NCBI GenBank assembly: GCA_045837725.1
Contig: JBEWZL010000188.1
Span: forward strand, 62,001-82,950
Length of the DNA: 20,950 nt
Reading direction: 5' to 3'
From: Vermamoeba vermiformis
Taxonomy: Eukaryota
This document shows positions 12,757 through 20,950 of this stretch, one piece after another. Below the pieces are notes generated by a model, which made no database searches, had not been told where the DNA came from, and saw only the letters and a list, made by a program, of their open reading frames with translations. The stretch's first letter is position 1, and the number at the start of each line of letters is the position of its first letter. The translations under genes and the position numbers were made by a program.

Positions 12757-15530
12757 ATGACAATAACATGGGTCTTAGAATATAAATTAGACTCATCTAA
12801 AAAGTTCCAGTTAAGCCCAGGCCAAGACCTGACGTTAGGTCGAGACGCATTGCCTGAAGGTTCGCATTGCATCCTGCTAAAGATAATAAATGTACTAAAT
12901 TAGTATAGGCCTAAAGGATCGGAAAATAAGCAGGCAGCAATTGTATATAAAGGCTACGAATGAAGATCTCGAAGTTACTTTGGTAAAATTAATTTCAAAA
13001 ATGTCTAAAAATCGCAATTACCCTTGATTAATATAATATTATTAGAATGGCGCTAATCCATCGTGTTTCAAGCGAGAAAATGAATTACCACAGTTTGTGC
13101 CAAAAACAAATCCGGTCAAACTTCACAGCGGCGACAGTTTATTTATAATACTTGACGAACACGAATTTTCTGTTATAAAACACGATGATGAAGATACGAT
13201 TCCATTGCCAGAGGCAGATCTGCTCCAAAAACTTAATAGCAACGAGATCAATGCTACAGAAACGAGTAATCAGCCAATTTAGTCCATCAGTTGCCAAAAA
13301 AAGAAAAATATCGAGTATTTCTTCGGAACTGGACTCCGAAGCTACTCAAGTTGAAAGCGAGTTGGACAATAATAACGAAAGTAGCCCGCCTAAAAAACAA
13401 AAAATCGAGCATAACGTTAATAACAATAACAATAGTCCTAAAAATACAGCAACGCAAGATAATGCTAAGTTTGACGAATCTTTGGTAAGTAGGAGCAGAT
13501 CCAGCGCAGACAAATTAAGTAATTTTCAGATCGCAAGATCTGTTCTCCAATAACAATTGCTAACTAGATTTTATCTTATACTAACATATTTATATAGATT
13601 GATTCGTTATTAGCGATTGTTCCAGCAATTACTAGGGACATCGCAGTACGAGCGTTACAAAATAGAAACGGCAACATGGAATTAGCAGTAAATGACTTGC
13701 TCGATCAATATTTGCGTAATTCACCAGTCAAAGTCAAGCAAACAATCAAGGAAAATATTAAGCAGATAAATAGTGCCGCGACAGACAAAAAAATCAAGCC
13801 AGATCTGACGACAATGAATCAATTCAAAGAGGCCTATCGATTGAATAAAATCAAGTATAGTCAAGAAAAGGACAATATATCAATATCTCAATTAATGGAG
13901 TTGGTAAGTACTCGATTTTGTTTCAACGTTTTTGCTAATAGATCGGGATGTAGGTTGACGACGCTGAAGTTGCAGTTTTGACTACTTATAAAATACAAAT
14001 GGATTGGCTATTAGACCAATGTCCATCACTATTAACTATACCAGAAGTCGTTATAGCTCACGGCGATATAGTCCTGGTACGTAAAAATTGTCGGATCTAC
14101 TTCCGATTTTTTCTGACTTTTCAATGTAGGAGGCGCTACCAGACAATTTTCAATTGATTAAGCCATATGTACCTCAATATGGATGTCCTCATGGCAAAAT
14201 CATGGTGTTGTTTGGCAAGACTCATTTGCTCGTTATGATCTCAACCGGAAATTTGATCGAAGTCGATTACGAACGAAAAACAAACGTAAGTTTTCACTGA
14301 ACGATTACTAAAATTGATAAAATTATTAAGGTTTGTTAACAATTCGAAACTATTTTAGGGCGTTTGGTACCAAGTATTCCCGCTGAAAAATAATAATGCC
14401 AATGCCGAATCGTCAATGGGCAGTGATTTTAAATTGACATTGTACGATTATATTCTGCAATTAGGAATATCAAAGGCAATATGCAATCGATTGCACAAAT
14501 ACAATTTTGACGACGTAAGTGTCGGATCCGTTTTTGCTGACACGTGTCAAAGTGTCAAATTTTCTTACCTTTGCACGCAGGTTCTCGTACGATTAATCAC
14601 GTCGGTCCCTGGTACTCATAGCGGTGCTCAATTAGAGAAATATGGGCATATGAAACTACGAAAAGAATTGGCGCAGCATGTGCCGCAATTCAGCGAGCAG
14701 CAGATCTACAGCCAAGTACGCAATTGATCTCCATAACGTTAATTACTAATGCCATTTTATTTAATATATTTCGAGTATTGGATCGATCGATGACAAGTGG
14801 ATCCAAGAGTTTTCACAGAGCTGCGCTGGCGGGAAAAAATCAGTCAAATTGAACGTCATTTGGTACGCTCAAAATCAATACGTATTATTACGCAATATTA
14901 ATATTCGATATTGTTATATTTATAGGCCTAGCGTTGATTTTGTGAAAAATTGTGTTGACGGAATGGATGCGGGTGGTTCGCTTTGCTTGCCTGGCAAAAA
15001 TCTCAAACCGGCCGTTCAAAATTTATTTCAAAAGTATCAGCCGAGACAAAAAGAACGAGCTACAATCCCTCCTCATATTAAGGTACCTATCAAACATGAA
15101 TTAATGACGGATCTAACGATGACTTCATACAGACGTTTTTGAAGTTCAAAAAAAACGATGAACTAGAATGGCTCTGTTTAACGTCTGCAAATTTCTCAAA
15201 AGCTGCTTGGGGCGTATTGCAAAAGAGCGGTACTCAATTAACGATGAATAATTTTGAGGCACGTTATAATGCCGGATCCCGCTTGACCCTTTTATATCGA
15301 TCTATTCTATCTTGATCACGTACCAATCAAATTAAATATTTATTAATCTTTATTTTTCGTTTTAGATTGGAGTCCTGTTTTTGCCGTCATTACTGAAGAA
15401 ATCAATTTTCGTCGGCGAAGAATTGAACATCAGTGCCGATCGAATTACACTGCCAATTCCGTATTCAATTCCAGCACCTGTGTACAATATTGGAGAGCGG
15501 CCTTGGACTTGGGACGAGTTTCCAAAATAA
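12757..15530 (+). CDS. TDP1: Tyrosyl-DNA phosphodiesterase 1 with N-terminal FHA-like and UBA-like domains; one unresolved frame break at ~13280
   Basis: Both HxK catalytic motifs are present (YGCPHGKIMVLF...ISTGNL and PPHIKTF...LTSANFSKAAWG), along with LITSVPG, Q-ISSIGS, WPSVDFV, NNFEIGVLF and LPIPY...PW. The N-terminus LTLGRD...DRKISRQQL...GANPS is FHA-like. The model needs a GC-AG intron (15259-15365) and an intron ending AT (14716-14767). Confidence 0.9.
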
Positions 15531-15715
15531 ACTTGAATACGTAAGTTGGAACAACATTCATTTTGACACAAAGGACAGGACTGAGAATAAGTGAAATTTA
15601 TTATTATTAGGGCATACAAAAAATTACATACATATGATATTTTACCTTTGTATTGATACTGGCAAATACAGTACCAATACAGTTTGATTACAATCGATGT
15701 TTAAGCTTGAGTAGC

Positions 15716-18050
15716 TTAATCATTAGTTGTGGTGGTGTTTGTTCTGAGTGGAATTCCAAGAGTACTCAGCACTCTTTTGAATGCATCACGATCATTCACA
15801 ATTTGCATGACATGCTCTTCACTCAGTTGAATCCAAAGTGAGGTCTTGTCTGAGTGACCAATCACTGATGTCTCTGGGAGTTGAGTGTAGTTTGATCTTG
15901 GTATTCCAATATCAAGGTGCAATTCGTTCCAATTTGAAACAGCTTTTATGGCTTCAAGAGCCACTCCACATTCATTTGGATAATTACGCCAGCCATCTTT
16001 CAAATAATTCTTTGTGAATTTGTCCTTGTTATTCTTTTCGTTTTCGGGCAAATTGCTTTTTCTGTTCTCTTTTGGCGAGTGCAGGTAGATGCCAATTTTG
16101 AAGAGAATTCCACCTAAAATAATGTCGGTTCATGCAACTTTTAAACTGTCTACATACCATAAAAGCCAATCACATCAGGGCCATAATACTTTGAGGGAAG
16201 CAATAGCTCATTTTCATATTGAGTAAGCAACAGAAGGAGCTCACCCCAATATTCCACTTGGCACACCATTATTTTTTTCAAAGCATCAATCACTAGCTTG
16301 TTTCTTGCCTTGTTGTCTGAAAAGAGTTTCTCAAGAATTGTTCCTTTTAGTGCAACCTGTATTTTCTCAGGCTTGGCTTCTGTTAAACTTGATTTGCTTT
16401 AAAGTCTTGATTAATGTGCTAAACACAGCACTATGCTCCATTGAGGATCCCACACGAGTCCAGTTGTTTTGGAAAGGCTGGTTCAACCAATCAGGTGCTT
16501 TGTCATCAAAAACTACTCCTTTTAAAATTGGCAGATGTTGTATTTTATCAGTGTTGGGGAATTGGAGCTAAATGCAAAATTAGTAAAATTGCACTTGAAT
16601 GAGCACATACCATTAATGCAGCCACTAAGCACTCAAATGCATAGCCTTTCTTGCCACAGTTTGCATGGTGCATTGAGCCCACCAGTTTTTTCAAATCTTG
16701 TTCATATTCATCAATGAAAGGTGCTTCAATCTCCTTTAACCAGCTACGAAACACTTCAAATGAATATGGCTCCTCAATTGAGATGCAGTGTTCCTCATCT
16801 ATCAGCTTCACTGAGGCAAAGCCAAGATCGTCAATATTAATTCCAAGCTCAGTACACTTTTTGTCAGACACCTGCAAGTCTCCAATAGAGCTGCAGACAA
16901 AGAGTGTCTTTAACCAATCTCTCCCTGGTAGCAAGTTAGAAAATTGATTTGGACCTAAAAAAGTACTCACATTGCTTGTGAAGTTCTGTATCAGTTTTAA
17001 ACTTGTTTTCAAGTGCATTCAAGTGCTTTTCAACATAGTTCTTGGTTACCGTTTTCATGTCCTCAAGGCCAGCTTTAATGTAGTCTTGTAGTTGGGGAGA
17101 TGGTATGTTTGGCTTGGCATTAAAAATGAATTTGTTCAAATTTGCAGATCGTTGCATTCGTCCTTGTGCAAATAAGCCAATCTGAGATCTTAGATCCAAG
17201 TCATTGGCCAAACGTTCATGGTAGAATTGTGTGACAAAGGCAACAGCATCTTCTGGTGAGGCAACTGGGAATTGAAAATATTGGGACCTAAGAAGGGCAG
17301 AAAAATTTCGAATGGTTTGGTTACGTACTCTTTTGGTAAGCCAAGGAGTTCTCGAGCATAATCTCCTTCGTAGAAATTTCCCTTACTGTCCATTAATATA
17401 ATCTCTTTGTAGTCTTGGATCTTTTCTTTCTTGTCGAACTCGTAAAAGCCACGACCTTTCTCAAAGTCCAAGCCATTCTCTTTAATGAAGTCTCTAATAT
17501 GCTGAGGGTGGTTCACGCGCATCACTAGGAACCTACGGCACAAGGTTATAAGATAGTCGAGATCTGCGAACAGAATAATTTTTTTTAGATGTGCGGATGG
17601 CACTTACCGGGATTGGTTCGTAGTCTTAGCGGACCCATTTCTGTTTCTTTTAGTGCTATTCTTTTTAGGAGTGGCTTCTTTAATATCGAACTCATAATCG
17701 TCTTCGTTTTCCAGGGCTCCGTTCTCGATCGACTCAAAAACGAACTTCTCAGGTACCAAAAAAGACGTTCTTAGCTTGCGCGGTAATAATCTTTTTGCCT
17801 TCCTTGTCGATTTCATCTTGAGTAGTCACGTAATGAGTGACTCGATTCGTTATTGTATTTAGGACCTTTGAAAAAGTATTTAATCTCGCCGTAATTAATA
17901 AATAATCTTGTATTAAGGTACCTCGCCTCCTTTTGCGGTAATTTGGACTTTTAGATCCGAGGAGATGCCTGAGCCAAGAGCGAAAACGCATTCGTCGAAG
18001 ATCTTGGTCTTCTGCGCGTCAGTAGTTCTTCTTTTCTTTGTTCTTGGCAT
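15716..18050 (-). CDS. Chimeric gene or pseudogene: BRCT domain + truncated 'KGRGFYEF' domain + Crinkler-like (restriction-endonuclease-fold) C-terminal region
   Basis: Exons are 18050-17922, 17865-17608 (extra T at 17758-17763), 17532-17329, 17287-16971, 16924-16611, 16567-~16432, ~16379-16158 and 16113-15716. BRCT: IFDECVFAL...ITAKGGEVLNTITNRVTHYVT...VFLVPEKFVFESIENG..E..Y. Middle domain: IRDFIKENGLDFEKGRGFYEFDKKEKIQDYKEIILMD...GDYARELLGLP. C-terminal motifs: KGYAFECLVA and LLPSKYYGPDV. Confidence 0.6.
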
Positions 18051-18172
18051 AGAGCTGGTTGAAAATGTTAATATCTCTATATAAATTATCGAAAATGAAT
18101 TCCTTCTTCGAATTTAAGGCGACACCGCGATTTGGAATTTTCGTCCAGATCTGATCAAGCTTTCCAACATCA

Positions 18173-18358: not shown

Positions 18359-20950
18359 TTACTTTCTCTTTAGAGCAGCAAATAAAGCGAAAGGATTACC
18401 GCTCAATTTTTTGACTTCAGCATTCAAGATCGCATCACCCGTATCAAACTGCTCGCTATTAATAGCTGCTTGAATGATGCCATAATCAAATACTCGTCGC
18501 ATTTCGATGAACTCTTTGATGCGTTCGTCGACCATGCAGCACGAAAGCAGCACCACGAAAGGTTTCGTCAAGCTGTAACTTAGATCCGGCGAGAACTTTG
18601 AAATCAACGGCAAGCACTTATCTCGCAGCTCTATAATAGTATTAACGTATGAAGGTCTTAATATACTATAATATATTTGCAGTTACCTTTCAGGTTGGCC
18701 TGTTGAAAAACAATTGCAGTACTGCCCGAGCCCTGGTAAAAAAAGAATTAATCGCTGTACAAAATAACATTTTTCCTTTTATAGTAATTACGCCGTATTG
18801 GATGCCGTAGGTAAATCCGAGGATAGTCAGGACACGAAGCGAAAATTCCAACATCTGCATTCAAAAACATTAACATTTTCACTGAACCCTGATTTCAATG
18901 AAAACTTACGTTATCTTCGCTCACATCCACAATTGGGAATTCAAATGCCGTGCTAGTTTTGTTCGGCAGTCTTGTAACGAGCACTGAGAAATATTCCAAG
19001 AACTTTTTGAAATATTAGTGTCGAATTTATCTTATTAAGCTTATTATGACTTACAGAAACGTGTTCGAAATCTTCCATATCTTCCTTAAGAATGGCGAGG
19101 TCTAGGTTCCACGAGAAGTCGAGCAAGTTGCGGATGATTTTCGCGGTGACTAATTTGTTCTCGATCGAAAGCGAGAACACCTGTAAGGATCAGCGTTAGT
19201 AGTGCTTATTATTGTTTAAAATAATCAAGGCGCCACTTAGATTGAATAAGATAAGGTTGAAAATTATCGGCGCTGAAAGGCGTATTCTCGCAGTACTACG
19301 CGGCTCTATAATCACGTGGATTTTCGATATCGTGAAAAGAGGGTGAGCTCCTCGGCTAAAATATTTTTGCAAATACTGGACACTATGACTATAATATGAA
19401 GAGCAGGAGATAGCCGAAGATACGTTCGCCTCGCGCAACAATTTCGACGAAAATTTTTTGGTCTATTTTTAAAAGTTGATTACTTACCACTGTGAACAAC
19501 TCGTACAATGCCTCAGCGGAGTCAAGACCAGTCTGCCTTCTGAACAATCGAGAGTAGTGCGACAAGCTATTGGTCACCAACATCAAGTAGTACGTGAGAT
19601 GTCGTTTGGTCAATAGCGGTGCAATAAGTTTGATTAATTCTGCGAATGGACGGATGAATCGTTCGTCAGGGAGTTTCAATCTGAACCAGGCCAATGCGAT
19701 GTGGAAGATTTGTTGAATGAACGGAAAGGAGTCTTTTTTCATCTCCAATGTCAATTTCATCAAATTGACCATGATTCGCTTGTAATTCAATTTGGCTACT
19801 TTCTAAATAATAAAATCTTGTTAGCAAAATTACGTAGCTTTGCATTATTTAGGAGATCCGAAAAAATGATTAGCTAACCATAGTTTTAGTTATAAATGGT
19901 AATTTTATCGATCTTAATAATAATAATAGTTTGAAAATACTTGCCCATTTAAGCCTAGATTCACCAACGTTTTCGGCAAACAACACATCCGCTGCAAAAA
20001 CTGAAGGAGCCTCAATGAACTCGTTACTCATTTCCTCGTCTTCAATATCATCAGCATCGTCCTTAGTCTGCTCTAATATTTCATCTGCGTCTTCATTGCT
20101 AAGACTATCTCCGCTCTGGATCCGTTTGAGAATTTGTTGAAAATACCTCCGAGAATGATCGGAGGTCTCCGGTAATATCGGCAACCCCTCGTTCGGTTGT
20201 ATATCTCGCATATCCGAGATACAGCTTTGTCCGTACAGCGCAAACCCTTCCTGAAAAAAGTTGACCACGTACTGCAGAATTTTCTGGGAATTTGCTTTGA
20301 AGTTCCATCCGAGAAGTTGCTTAATAATATCACCAATAAGACCGTAGAGCAGCGGAAGATCAACAACGAATTCTCTTCCTTTTTCTGCTTCTTCCAACAA
20401 TGCGGGTACTTCGCTGGTGAATTCTGGGCCAGCGACACCTTTGAGGCCTGATTCACTTCATTAGTTATGCGAAAAATACTACTAAAAATTCTATTATTTT
20501 GAGAAAATTGGGTGCTTTATGTAACTTACCAAGTCTGAAATAAATGTCCAATAACTCCGCTGGCGATAAAATTTTTCGTTTGAGAACTACTCTAAGCAAG
20601 GCGTGTTTGTAACGAGGAATAAACTAGCAAATAGTTAGTATTTATAAATAAATAGTTTATTAGTATTTTAATATAAGAACCAAGCAATCTTTACTTACGC
20701 TTGCCAGTCTTGTTCCGAATGCAGATCCGAGTTTACACAGCGAAATCAACAACGACTTGTTTTGTGCATCTATTGAAGACGAATCTAATAGCAGTTCAAT
20801 AATCGAGTTGTTCAATTTGTTAAATTTTTCGTCGTTGATTAGACCACTGTTTTCCTCGTTGATTAAACACAATATTGCCTCTACAAAAAATAGCCTAAAT
20901 AGTATTCATGAGTTTTCATGTCACATTAAGCCGACAATATAATAATGTAC
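18359..20950 (-). CDS. 3' part of a large Leu-rich alpha-helical (ARM/HEAT-like) protein of unknown family; the gene starts beyond the window
   Basis: Phase-consistent GT-AG exons join ORF pieces at ~20880-20698, 20624-20531, 20447-19879, 19802-19488, 19180-19054, ~19003-18910, 18855-18792, 18732-18687 and 18630-18359, ending ...SGNPFALFAALKRK*. I recognised no family motif. Confidence 0.7.

What the first reader, a model, noticed from the sequence alone, without database searches (positions are those of the whole stretch)
15716..18050. In-frame spliced chimera: BRCT/'KGRGFYEF' head fused to a Crinkler-like nuclease-fold tail
Seen: exon 3 ends ...ARELLGLPK-GA, followed by a 41-nt GT-AG intron (17328-17288), and reading continues in frame into an unrelated region (SQYFQFPVASPEDAVAFV...FAQGRMQR...KGYAFECLVA...PSKYYGPDV). 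Recalled, not verified: the KGRGFYEF..IQ..KE..L.D...ARxLLGLP domain of vWA-associated proteins normally continues to a VFxQSTS.NR motif, which is absent here and not found downstream. The GR, GxxFE and PxxxGPD motif series resembles the end of the NTPase plus the PD-(D/E)xK REase module of Crinkler/RHS (CR) proteins, which are known to swap N-terminal headers. Inference: a young fusion puts a DNA-damage-targeting BRCT head on an effector- or transposon-derived nuclease fold, tail-to-tail with TDP1.
Basis: partly seen in the sequence, partly recalled or inferred. Interest (0 to 1): 0.75.

Follow-up and report, generated by a model that had tools for sequence, protein, structure and literature searches.

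The report
Two neighbouring genes collapsed by assembly
What looked like a new fusion of a DNA-repair-type BRCT gene with a Crinkler-like nuclease gene is most likely two separate neighbouring genes, whose intervening DNA is missing from this assembly but present in public sequencing data.

Summary
The 41-nt GT-AG stretch (17328-17288) is in the window and does splice exon 3 into the tail in frame. The chimera is still not supported.

(1) The modelled gene is not open. It breaks in the BRCT (stop 17751-17749) and again in the tail (16398-16367).
(2) No listed DNA contig carries the window's junction. In run X1 the head runs on into its parent's own intron, and the tail runs upstream in frame into a motif its paralogs share. 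Run X2 shows an out-of-frame deletion allele and, by depth arithmetic, a long allele.
(3) A close relative's intact gene (P0002, 238 aa) is BRCT plus the KGRGFYEF domain. It ends 42 residues after LGLPK with its own FVQSTS motif and has no tail.
(4) Seven of seven paralogous loci have Walker A/B NTPase motifs; the window has none.

Best reading: a BRCT gene and a separate CR-like NTPase + REase-like gene, with the DNA between them dropped at a heterozygous deletion. The Crinkler-like guess fits the tail family, but the REase fold is only weakly supported and the ExK motif is missing. RNA could not be tested.

The parts
17922..18050 (-). Gene 1 exon 1 (ATG 18050), start of BRCT
   Evidence: 79% identical to P0002 residues 3-45; GT donor at 17921. 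X1 and X2 contigs lack 11 nt at 18026.
17608..17865 (-). Gene 1 exon 2: rest of BRCT and basic linker; frame broken at the T-run 17758-17763, stop 17751-17749
   Evidence: Two frames each match P0002. Relative's genomic ORF P0047 reads through this place with no intron. X1 record 7 has 0 substitutions and only the 11-nt gap over 17695-18118, so the break is in reads too.
17329..17532 (-). Gene 1 exon 3: KGRGFYEF..ARELLGLPK domain, lacking its last exon
   Evidence: 91% identical to P0002, 97% to P0001; single copy in own assembly; no Pfam hit at cut-off.
17288..17328 (-). Apparent 41-nt intron = junction where DNA is missing. 17328-17316 is the true start of gene 1's last intron; 17315-17294 is in no listed contig; 17293-17288 is coding sequence of gene 2 in the long allele
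   Evidence: Loose ends at 17316 and 17293 in X1, joint 17292/17344 in X2; translations of the loose ends; depth arithmetic.
16971..17287 (-). Gene 2 first retained exon: end of NTPase region with QGR motif and helical lid
   Evidence: 26-32% identical to 4 paralogs, which have Walker A/B upstream.
16611..16924 (-). Gene 2 exon ending in GYAFE (candidate first catalytic Glu of an REase fold)
   Evidence: Paralog matches.
16158..16567 (-). Gene 2 exon with PSKYYGPD; frame broken between 16398 and 16367
   Evidence: Paralogs L014, L015, L016 are open across this stretch.
15716..16113 (-). Gene 2 last exon: remaining strands of the putative REase core, no (D/E)xK motif
   Evidence: Paralog matches; alignment A4; weak fold matches of relatives' models.
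13100..15530 (+). TDP1 gene, tail-to-tail neighbour (ends approximate)
   Evidence: PF06087 on two ORFs, CUE/UBA on a third.

Best explanation
The locus holds two separate genes on the minus strand. Gene 1 encodes BRCT plus the KGRGFYEF domain and ends with its own last exon. Gene 2 is a CR-like protein: P-loop NTPase, helical lid and a degenerate REase-like domain. The sequenced organism is heterozygous here. A long allele keeps the DNA between the genes (at least 307 nt; roughly 1-1.6 kb if gene 2 is as long as its paralogs, an estimate). A short allele has deleted it between 17344 and 17292 at a 3-nt microhomology, joining the genes out of frame. The window's junction matches neither allele. 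It is most likely a consensus blend of the two that happens to begin GT, end AG and splice in frame. Shown: divergence of contigs on both sides, the short-allele joint, the intact stand-alone parent, NTPase motifs in paralogs, two frame breaks. Inferred: that one contig links head and tail in the long allele, the size of the missing piece, the microhomology, and that the blend is an assembly product. Likely function of an intact gene 2 (inferred, about 50%): an ATP-driven nucleic-acid-binding protein of transposon/conflict origin whose nuclease site has decayed.
For:: X1 record 4 matches 17547-17316 with 0 differences, then runs on for 307 unlike letters. Another X1 loose end starts at 17293. 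X2 has a joint 17292/17344 at depth 242; the head-side loose end translates 8 of 10 identical to P0001's intron read-through at the exact offset, versus 0 of 10 for the window's own continuation; the tail-side loose end is open in exon 4's frame and carries GES, 13 codons before FP (12-15 in 3 of 5 paralogs tested; 2 lack the motif). The short joint is out of frame. X2 residual depths on both sides are 219.5 and 219.3 under the long-allele model. Reported side = 27 and two unaligned letters on record 11 fit a 57-nt deletion contig. P0002 and P0045 are complete without a tail; P0001, P0003 and P0048 also stop after the FVQSTS exon. Walker A and B in 7 of 7 paralog loci, 0 in the window; the missing pieces were not found elsewhere in the assembly.
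Against: The long-allele contig of X2 is not listed as a joint or loose end; it is inferred from depth bins. A window-like allele at depth about 167 also fits the bins if the joint's side were 29 rather than the reported 27. X1 shows no short allele. The window has 11 nt at 18026, shared with the parent P0002, that neither run's contig shows, so the window may come from another isolate or haplotype. Intron alleles here differ a lot (8 substitutions and 10 gap letters in 207 nt, record 13), so a natural third allele is possible. Only contigs, not raw DNA reads, were laid.
Confidence: 0.75

Rival explanations
1. The window shows a real third allele: an independent deletion between gene 1's last intron and gene 2, leaving a splicable 41-nt intron. 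It makes no fusion protein because translation stops after 81 codons in the broken BRCT, so it is a pseudogene.
For: The window differs from X1/X2 contigs at many places, including 11 nt that the parent shares; alleles are very divergent in introns; a nearby real deletion exists in X2; contigs drop variants.
Against: Two independent deletions with breakpoints within about 30 nt are unlikely. By eye, the 22 unsupported bases look like a thinned blend of the two loose ends. Side = 27 and the two unaligned letters of record 11 do not fit a window-like allele in X2.
Confidence: 0.17
2. In the long allele gene 2 has no start of its own, and some transcripts skip gene 1's last exon, making a real BRCT-headed NTPase + REase-like protein.
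For: CR proteins take varied N-terminal headers (passages of PMC5289972). Paralogs here differ upstream of the NTPase: SAM-like in L036 (Pfam SAM_2 E 0.0056, below cut-off), a SAM-like stretch by eye in L016, none evident in L014. The missing piece was not seen in full.
Against: All five close relatives of gene 1 that extend that far stop after their own last exon. None of 42 longer homologues of exon 3 was seen with such a tail (Pfam columns for all 42, sequences read for 12). Gene 1 carries lesions in the contigs.
Confidence: 0.05
3. One reading: a functional in-frame spliced BRCT/KGRGFYEF-nuclease chimera.
For: GT-AG ends and frame at 17328-17288; 9 of 25 listed tail substitutions are silent versus 21% at random, hinting at recent selection on gene 2 (40 of 85 rows were visible).
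Against: Two frame breaks, the first also present in X1; junction absent from listed contigs; NTPase missing; ExK missing.
Confidence: 0.03

Closest known systems
CR (Crinkler-RHS-type) proteins with NTPase + REase C-termini (Zhang et al. 2016, as summarised in PMC5289972 and PMC11342252; passages read, original not held)
   Same: Paralogs of the tail have a P-loop NTPase (Walker A, Walker B, QGR) followed by a region with E..GPD motifs whose models weakly resemble REase folds; variable N-termini; multi-copy family with broken members.
   Different: No (D/E)xK in the window or in four paralogs inspected; no Ubl/LXLFLAK header seen by eye; no Pfam hit; assignment to a numbered CR-NTPase or CR-REase clade was not testable. 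The window itself lacks the NTPase core.
vWA-associated KGRGFYEF-domain proteins (bacterial vWA and vWA+WGR proteins such as P0013, P0020; eukaryote-like BRCT+vWA proteins such as P0005)
   Same: Exon 3 is 47-66% identical to their C-terminal domain; P0005 also starts with BRCT.
   Different: The direct parent P0002 has no vWA: BRCT is linked straight to the domain. The window copy is frameshifted and lacks the last exon.
Collapsed heterozygous structural variant in a haploid-consensus assembly (general knowledge)
   Same: Two alleles at about equal depth (242 and 219) and a reference junction matching neither.
   Different: Not verified with raw or long reads.

Membership tests
Spliced in-frame fusion gene | GT-AG intron joining the two halves in frame | tested here: met
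   On the window sequence only.
Spliced in-frame fusion gene | One open frame from ATG to final stop | tested here: not met
   Stop at 17751-17749 and break at 16398-16367.
Spliced in-frame fusion gene | Junction present in independent DNA data | tested here: not met
   X1 diverges at 17316 and 17293; X2 pieces end at 17293 and 17344. Contigs show presence, not absence.
Spliced in-frame fusion gene | Spliced RNA reads across 17329/17287 | tested here: inconclusive
   X21 and X23 gave 6 and 8 partial reads, none 95% alike or better, and did not cover the TDP1 end either.
CR (Crinkler-RHS) NTPase+REase proteins | P-loop NTPase ahead of the REase, in the window's gene | tested here: not met
   No Walker A or B motif in three minus-strand frames of 15701-18100; the X1 tail contig runs on in frame into the missing part.
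CR (Crinkler-RHS) NTPase+REase proteins | P-loop NTPase ahead of the REase, in paralogs | tested here: met
   Walker A and B patterns (written from these loci, so descriptive) in 7 of 7 loci. Atlas feature hits for L036: unnamed eukaryotic clusters at 0.92, AAA/ATPase clusters at 0.84-0.87, leads only.
CR (Crinkler-RHS) NTPase+REase proteins | REase (PD-(D/E)xK) fold | tested here: inconclusive
   Models of relatives L016 and P0053: mean pLDDT 55 and 51. Best REase match EcoT38I Z 4.0, rmsd 3.3, 67 aligned. About 17-19 of 50 rows are REase-fold proteins by my recall of fold classes; top row Ski7 GTPase Z 4.3. Foldseek found nothing at E <= 0.001.
CR (Crinkler-RHS) NTPase+REase proteins | Catalytic E..D..ExK set | tested here: not met
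   E (GYAFE) and D (GPD) present. The strand where ExK is expected reads KIGIY in the window and has no ExK in L014, L015, L016, L036 (strand assignment inferred).
CR (Crinkler-RHS) NTPase+REase proteins | N-terminal header domain | not testable with these tools
   Gene 2's 5' part is not in the assembly; only 30 nt of each loose end were shown.
CR (Crinkler-RHS) NTPase+REase proteins | Profile match to a described CR-NTPase or CR-REase clade | not testable with these tools
   The defining paper is not held; no Pfam family at cut-off for the tail or paralog core exons; HMMER found 5 unnamed relatives.
BRCT + KGRGFYEF-domain proteins (P0002 type) | BRCT domain | tested here: met
   P0002 scores 29.9 bits, cut-off 21.3; the window is collinear with it but frameshifted.
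BRCT + KGRGFYEF-domain proteins (P0002 type) | Complete C-terminal domain ending FxQSTS.NR | tested here: not met
   Absent from window and assembly; the X1 contig continues into the intron that precedes it in P0001.

The most novel reading that the evidence does not exclude
This locus is a CR-type header swap caught in progress. Deletions between a BRCT/KGRGFYEF gene and the downstream CR-like gene segregate in the population, and one allele or splice form makes a BRCT-headed NTPase/REase-like protein aimed at damaged DNA.
Probability: 0.07. Interest if true: 0.6.

Novelty: not a real feature. Interest (0 to 1): 0.12.

Why it matters
As reported, it does not: the chimera is very likely a reference artefact at a heterozygous deletion, and the window's copy could not be translated past 81 codons. 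Two small points remain. A real deletion allele joins a neighbour's 5' half to a CR-like 3' half. That is the kind of event that could give CR proteins new headers, though here it is out of frame. The genome also holds a family of at least eight CR-like NTPase loci whose REase-like domain lacks ExK where inspected. If an expressed BRCT-headed form existed, it would give a testable case of header acquisition.

Tried and rejected
Unrecognised introns as the cause of the two frame breaks: candidates were listed and rejected, because P0047 and the paralogs are open across both places. An in-frame cryptic intron 17756-17702 would remove the BRCT's last helix.

Intact parents elsewhere in the assembly: DNA search gave only the window itself; exon 3 is single copy; the tail-side loose end had 0 hits; no orphan NTPase exon that could be gene 2's was found.

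RNA: no RNA holder was listed. Runs X21 and X23 share only the species label and did not map, so they say nothing on expression.

Neighbourhood of relatives: both metagenome scans failed (none; one spurious bacterial hit, L037).

Full-length homologues of the tail: none (weak negatives). Atlas search for the L016 C-terminus was blank.

Fold searches gave no Z >= 5 and no Foldseek hit.

Literature: none of the 15 listed papers (of 18) contains GRGFYE (listing only); a CR-NTPase/CR-REase search gave one paper. Zhang 2016 and its supplements were not available and may already list such proteins.

Earlier scan findings: three look-ups were empty. The organism was not identified.

Full report
Setting. 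The window lies in a 43-Mb, 309-contig assembly of an AT-rich eukaryote with short introns. Neighbours are ordinary: ATG17-like, WD40, Cupin_8, LBP/BPI, Hikeshi and TDP1. The organism was not identified.

Checking the observation. The minus-strand model has seven exons: 18050-17922, 17865-17608, 17532-17329, 17287-16971, 16924-16611, 16567-16158 and 16113-15716 (intron 2 ends at 17533, one base from the trial value in that script). The 41-nt GT-AG stretch is there and joins LGLPK to SQYFQFP in frame. But exon 2 changes frame at the T-run 17758-17763, giving a stop at 17751-17749 after 81 codons. Exon 6 changes frame between 16398 and 16367. Neither is a hidden intron: a relative's genomic ORF reads through the first place (P0047) and three paralogs are open across the second. 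The first break is also in run X1, whose contig has no substitution and only one unrelated gap over 17695-18118. For the second, the table shown does not let me tell whether the other haplotype is open (three indel rows were hidden).

The head has an intact, stand-alone parent. A search with exon 3 among longer proteins gave 42 hits among 65 candidates. P0002 (238 aa, 91% identical over exon 3) is collinear with exons 1-3. It scores as BRCT above Pfam's cut-off, continues 42 residues past LGLPK through FVQSTSWNR and stops. P0045, P0001, P0003 and P0048 end the same way. More distant hits are vWA, vWA+WGR or BRCT+vWA proteins with the domain at or near the C-terminus (12 of 42 sequences read). 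That last exon is not found anywhere in the assembly.

The tail is the 3' part of a longer gene. Exon 4 has four paralogs at 26-32% identity, and an NTPase exon of one of them finds three more loci. All 7 of 7 have Walker A and Walker B patterns upstream of the part that matches exon 4; the window has none (patterns were written from these loci). The Walker A lies 680-825 nt upstream in four paralogs. Several paralogs are themselves truncated or interrupted.

DNA data put the break inside the supposed intron. I laid two DNA and two RNA runs out of 24 listed. In X1 a 539-nt contig matches 17547-17316 perfectly and then runs on for 307 unlike letters. Its first 30 translate 8 of 10 identical to P0001's read-through of the parent's intron at the right offset; the window's own continuation scores 0 of 10. 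Another X1 contig diverges at 17293. Its next 30 letters are open in exon 4's frame and carry a GES motif 13 codons before FP; the spacing is 12-15 in 3 of 5 paralogs tested, and 2 lack the motif. That sequence is absent from the assembly. In X2, pieces end at 17293 and 17344 and a contig at depth 242 joins 17292 to 17344. Its reported short side of 27 and two unaligned letters on record 11 fit a 57-nt contig across a clean deletion with 3 nt of microhomology (my inference). The depth left over in the two flanking bins is 219.5 and 219.3 if one further contig covers 28 nt of tail and 58 nt of head, as X1's long allele would. Against this: that contig is not itself listed; a window-like allele at depth about 167 fits the bins if the side were 29; X1 shows no short allele; and contigs drop variants. 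The short joint is out of frame.

RNA. X21 and X23 gave only 6 and 8 partial reads, none 95% alike or better, and did not cover the TDP1 end either. They carry no information on expression.

What gene 2 is like. Reviews describe CR proteins as a variable header plus, in about a quarter of cases, a P-loop NTPase and an REase, also in free-living eukaryotes (PMC5289972, passages). They give the active site as E..D..ExK..Q (PMC11342252, passages). The defining paper was not held. The paralogs fit the architecture, with a weak SAM hit on L036. Models of two relatives were of low confidence (pLDDT 55 and 51). Their best structural matches stay at Z <= 4.3. About 17-19 of 50 rows for the second model are REase-fold proteins by my recall, such as EcoT38I (Z 4.0, rmsd 3.3, 67 aligned), Bax1, ERCC1 and Card1; Foldseek found nothing significant. 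The Glu and Asp are present in the window, but no ExK is seen in it or in four paralogs. So gene 2 is built like a CR NTPase+REase protein with a probably dead nuclease; membership of a named clade is untested. Of the 25 tail substitutions visible, 9 are silent against 21% expected at random (40 of 85 rows visible), a weak sign that gene 2 was under selection until recently.

Verdict. Most likely (0.75): two adjacent genes, a heterozygous deletion between them, and a reference junction that blends both alleles and mimics an intron. Less likely: a real but untranslatable third allele (0.17), a BRCT-headed form made by alternative splicing of the long allele (0.05), or the chimera as described (0.03). 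Interest 0.12.

Noticed in passing
P0002 / P0045; window 17329-18050: BRCT linked directly to the KGRGFYEF domain without vWA. The domain has no Pfam model, occurs after vWA in many homologues, some with a WGR domain, and here sits close to TDP1; a DNA-damage role is a guess.
   Followed up: partly
window 18026 and 17613: Contigs of X1 and X2 lack 11 nt just after the ATG, and one haplotype lacks 5 nt in exon 2: gene 1 seems to be decaying in this sample.
   Followed up: no
L013 1322-2197, 2795-4518, 4570-4728: A CR-like paralog is cut off after the lid region and lies between a Macro-domain gene (PF01661) and a second copy of that gene's last exon.
   Followed up: no
L034 and L035 (C126, C291): Two near-identical loci with a CR-like NTPase that seems to end after the QGR motif; possibly haplotigs or a recent duplication.
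   Followed up: no
L036 2941-5809; L016 5583-2520: Apparently complete family members with SAM-like heads; the best starting points for classifying the family.
   Followed up: partly
L015 1534-1809 and 4854-5261: A DUF4291 ORF lies about 1 kb upstream of a paralog that has a frame change near its GPD motif.
   Followed up: no
window 15355: Both DNA runs have a contig with a 146-nt loose end in the 3' part of TDP1: another allele difference.
   Followed up: no
window 16365-16435: Seven differences between the two haplotypes within 71 nt around the tail's frame break.
   Followed up: partly
window 18359-20950 (-): Multi-exon gene upstream of gene 1 with no Pfam hit on five ORFs.
   Followed up: no
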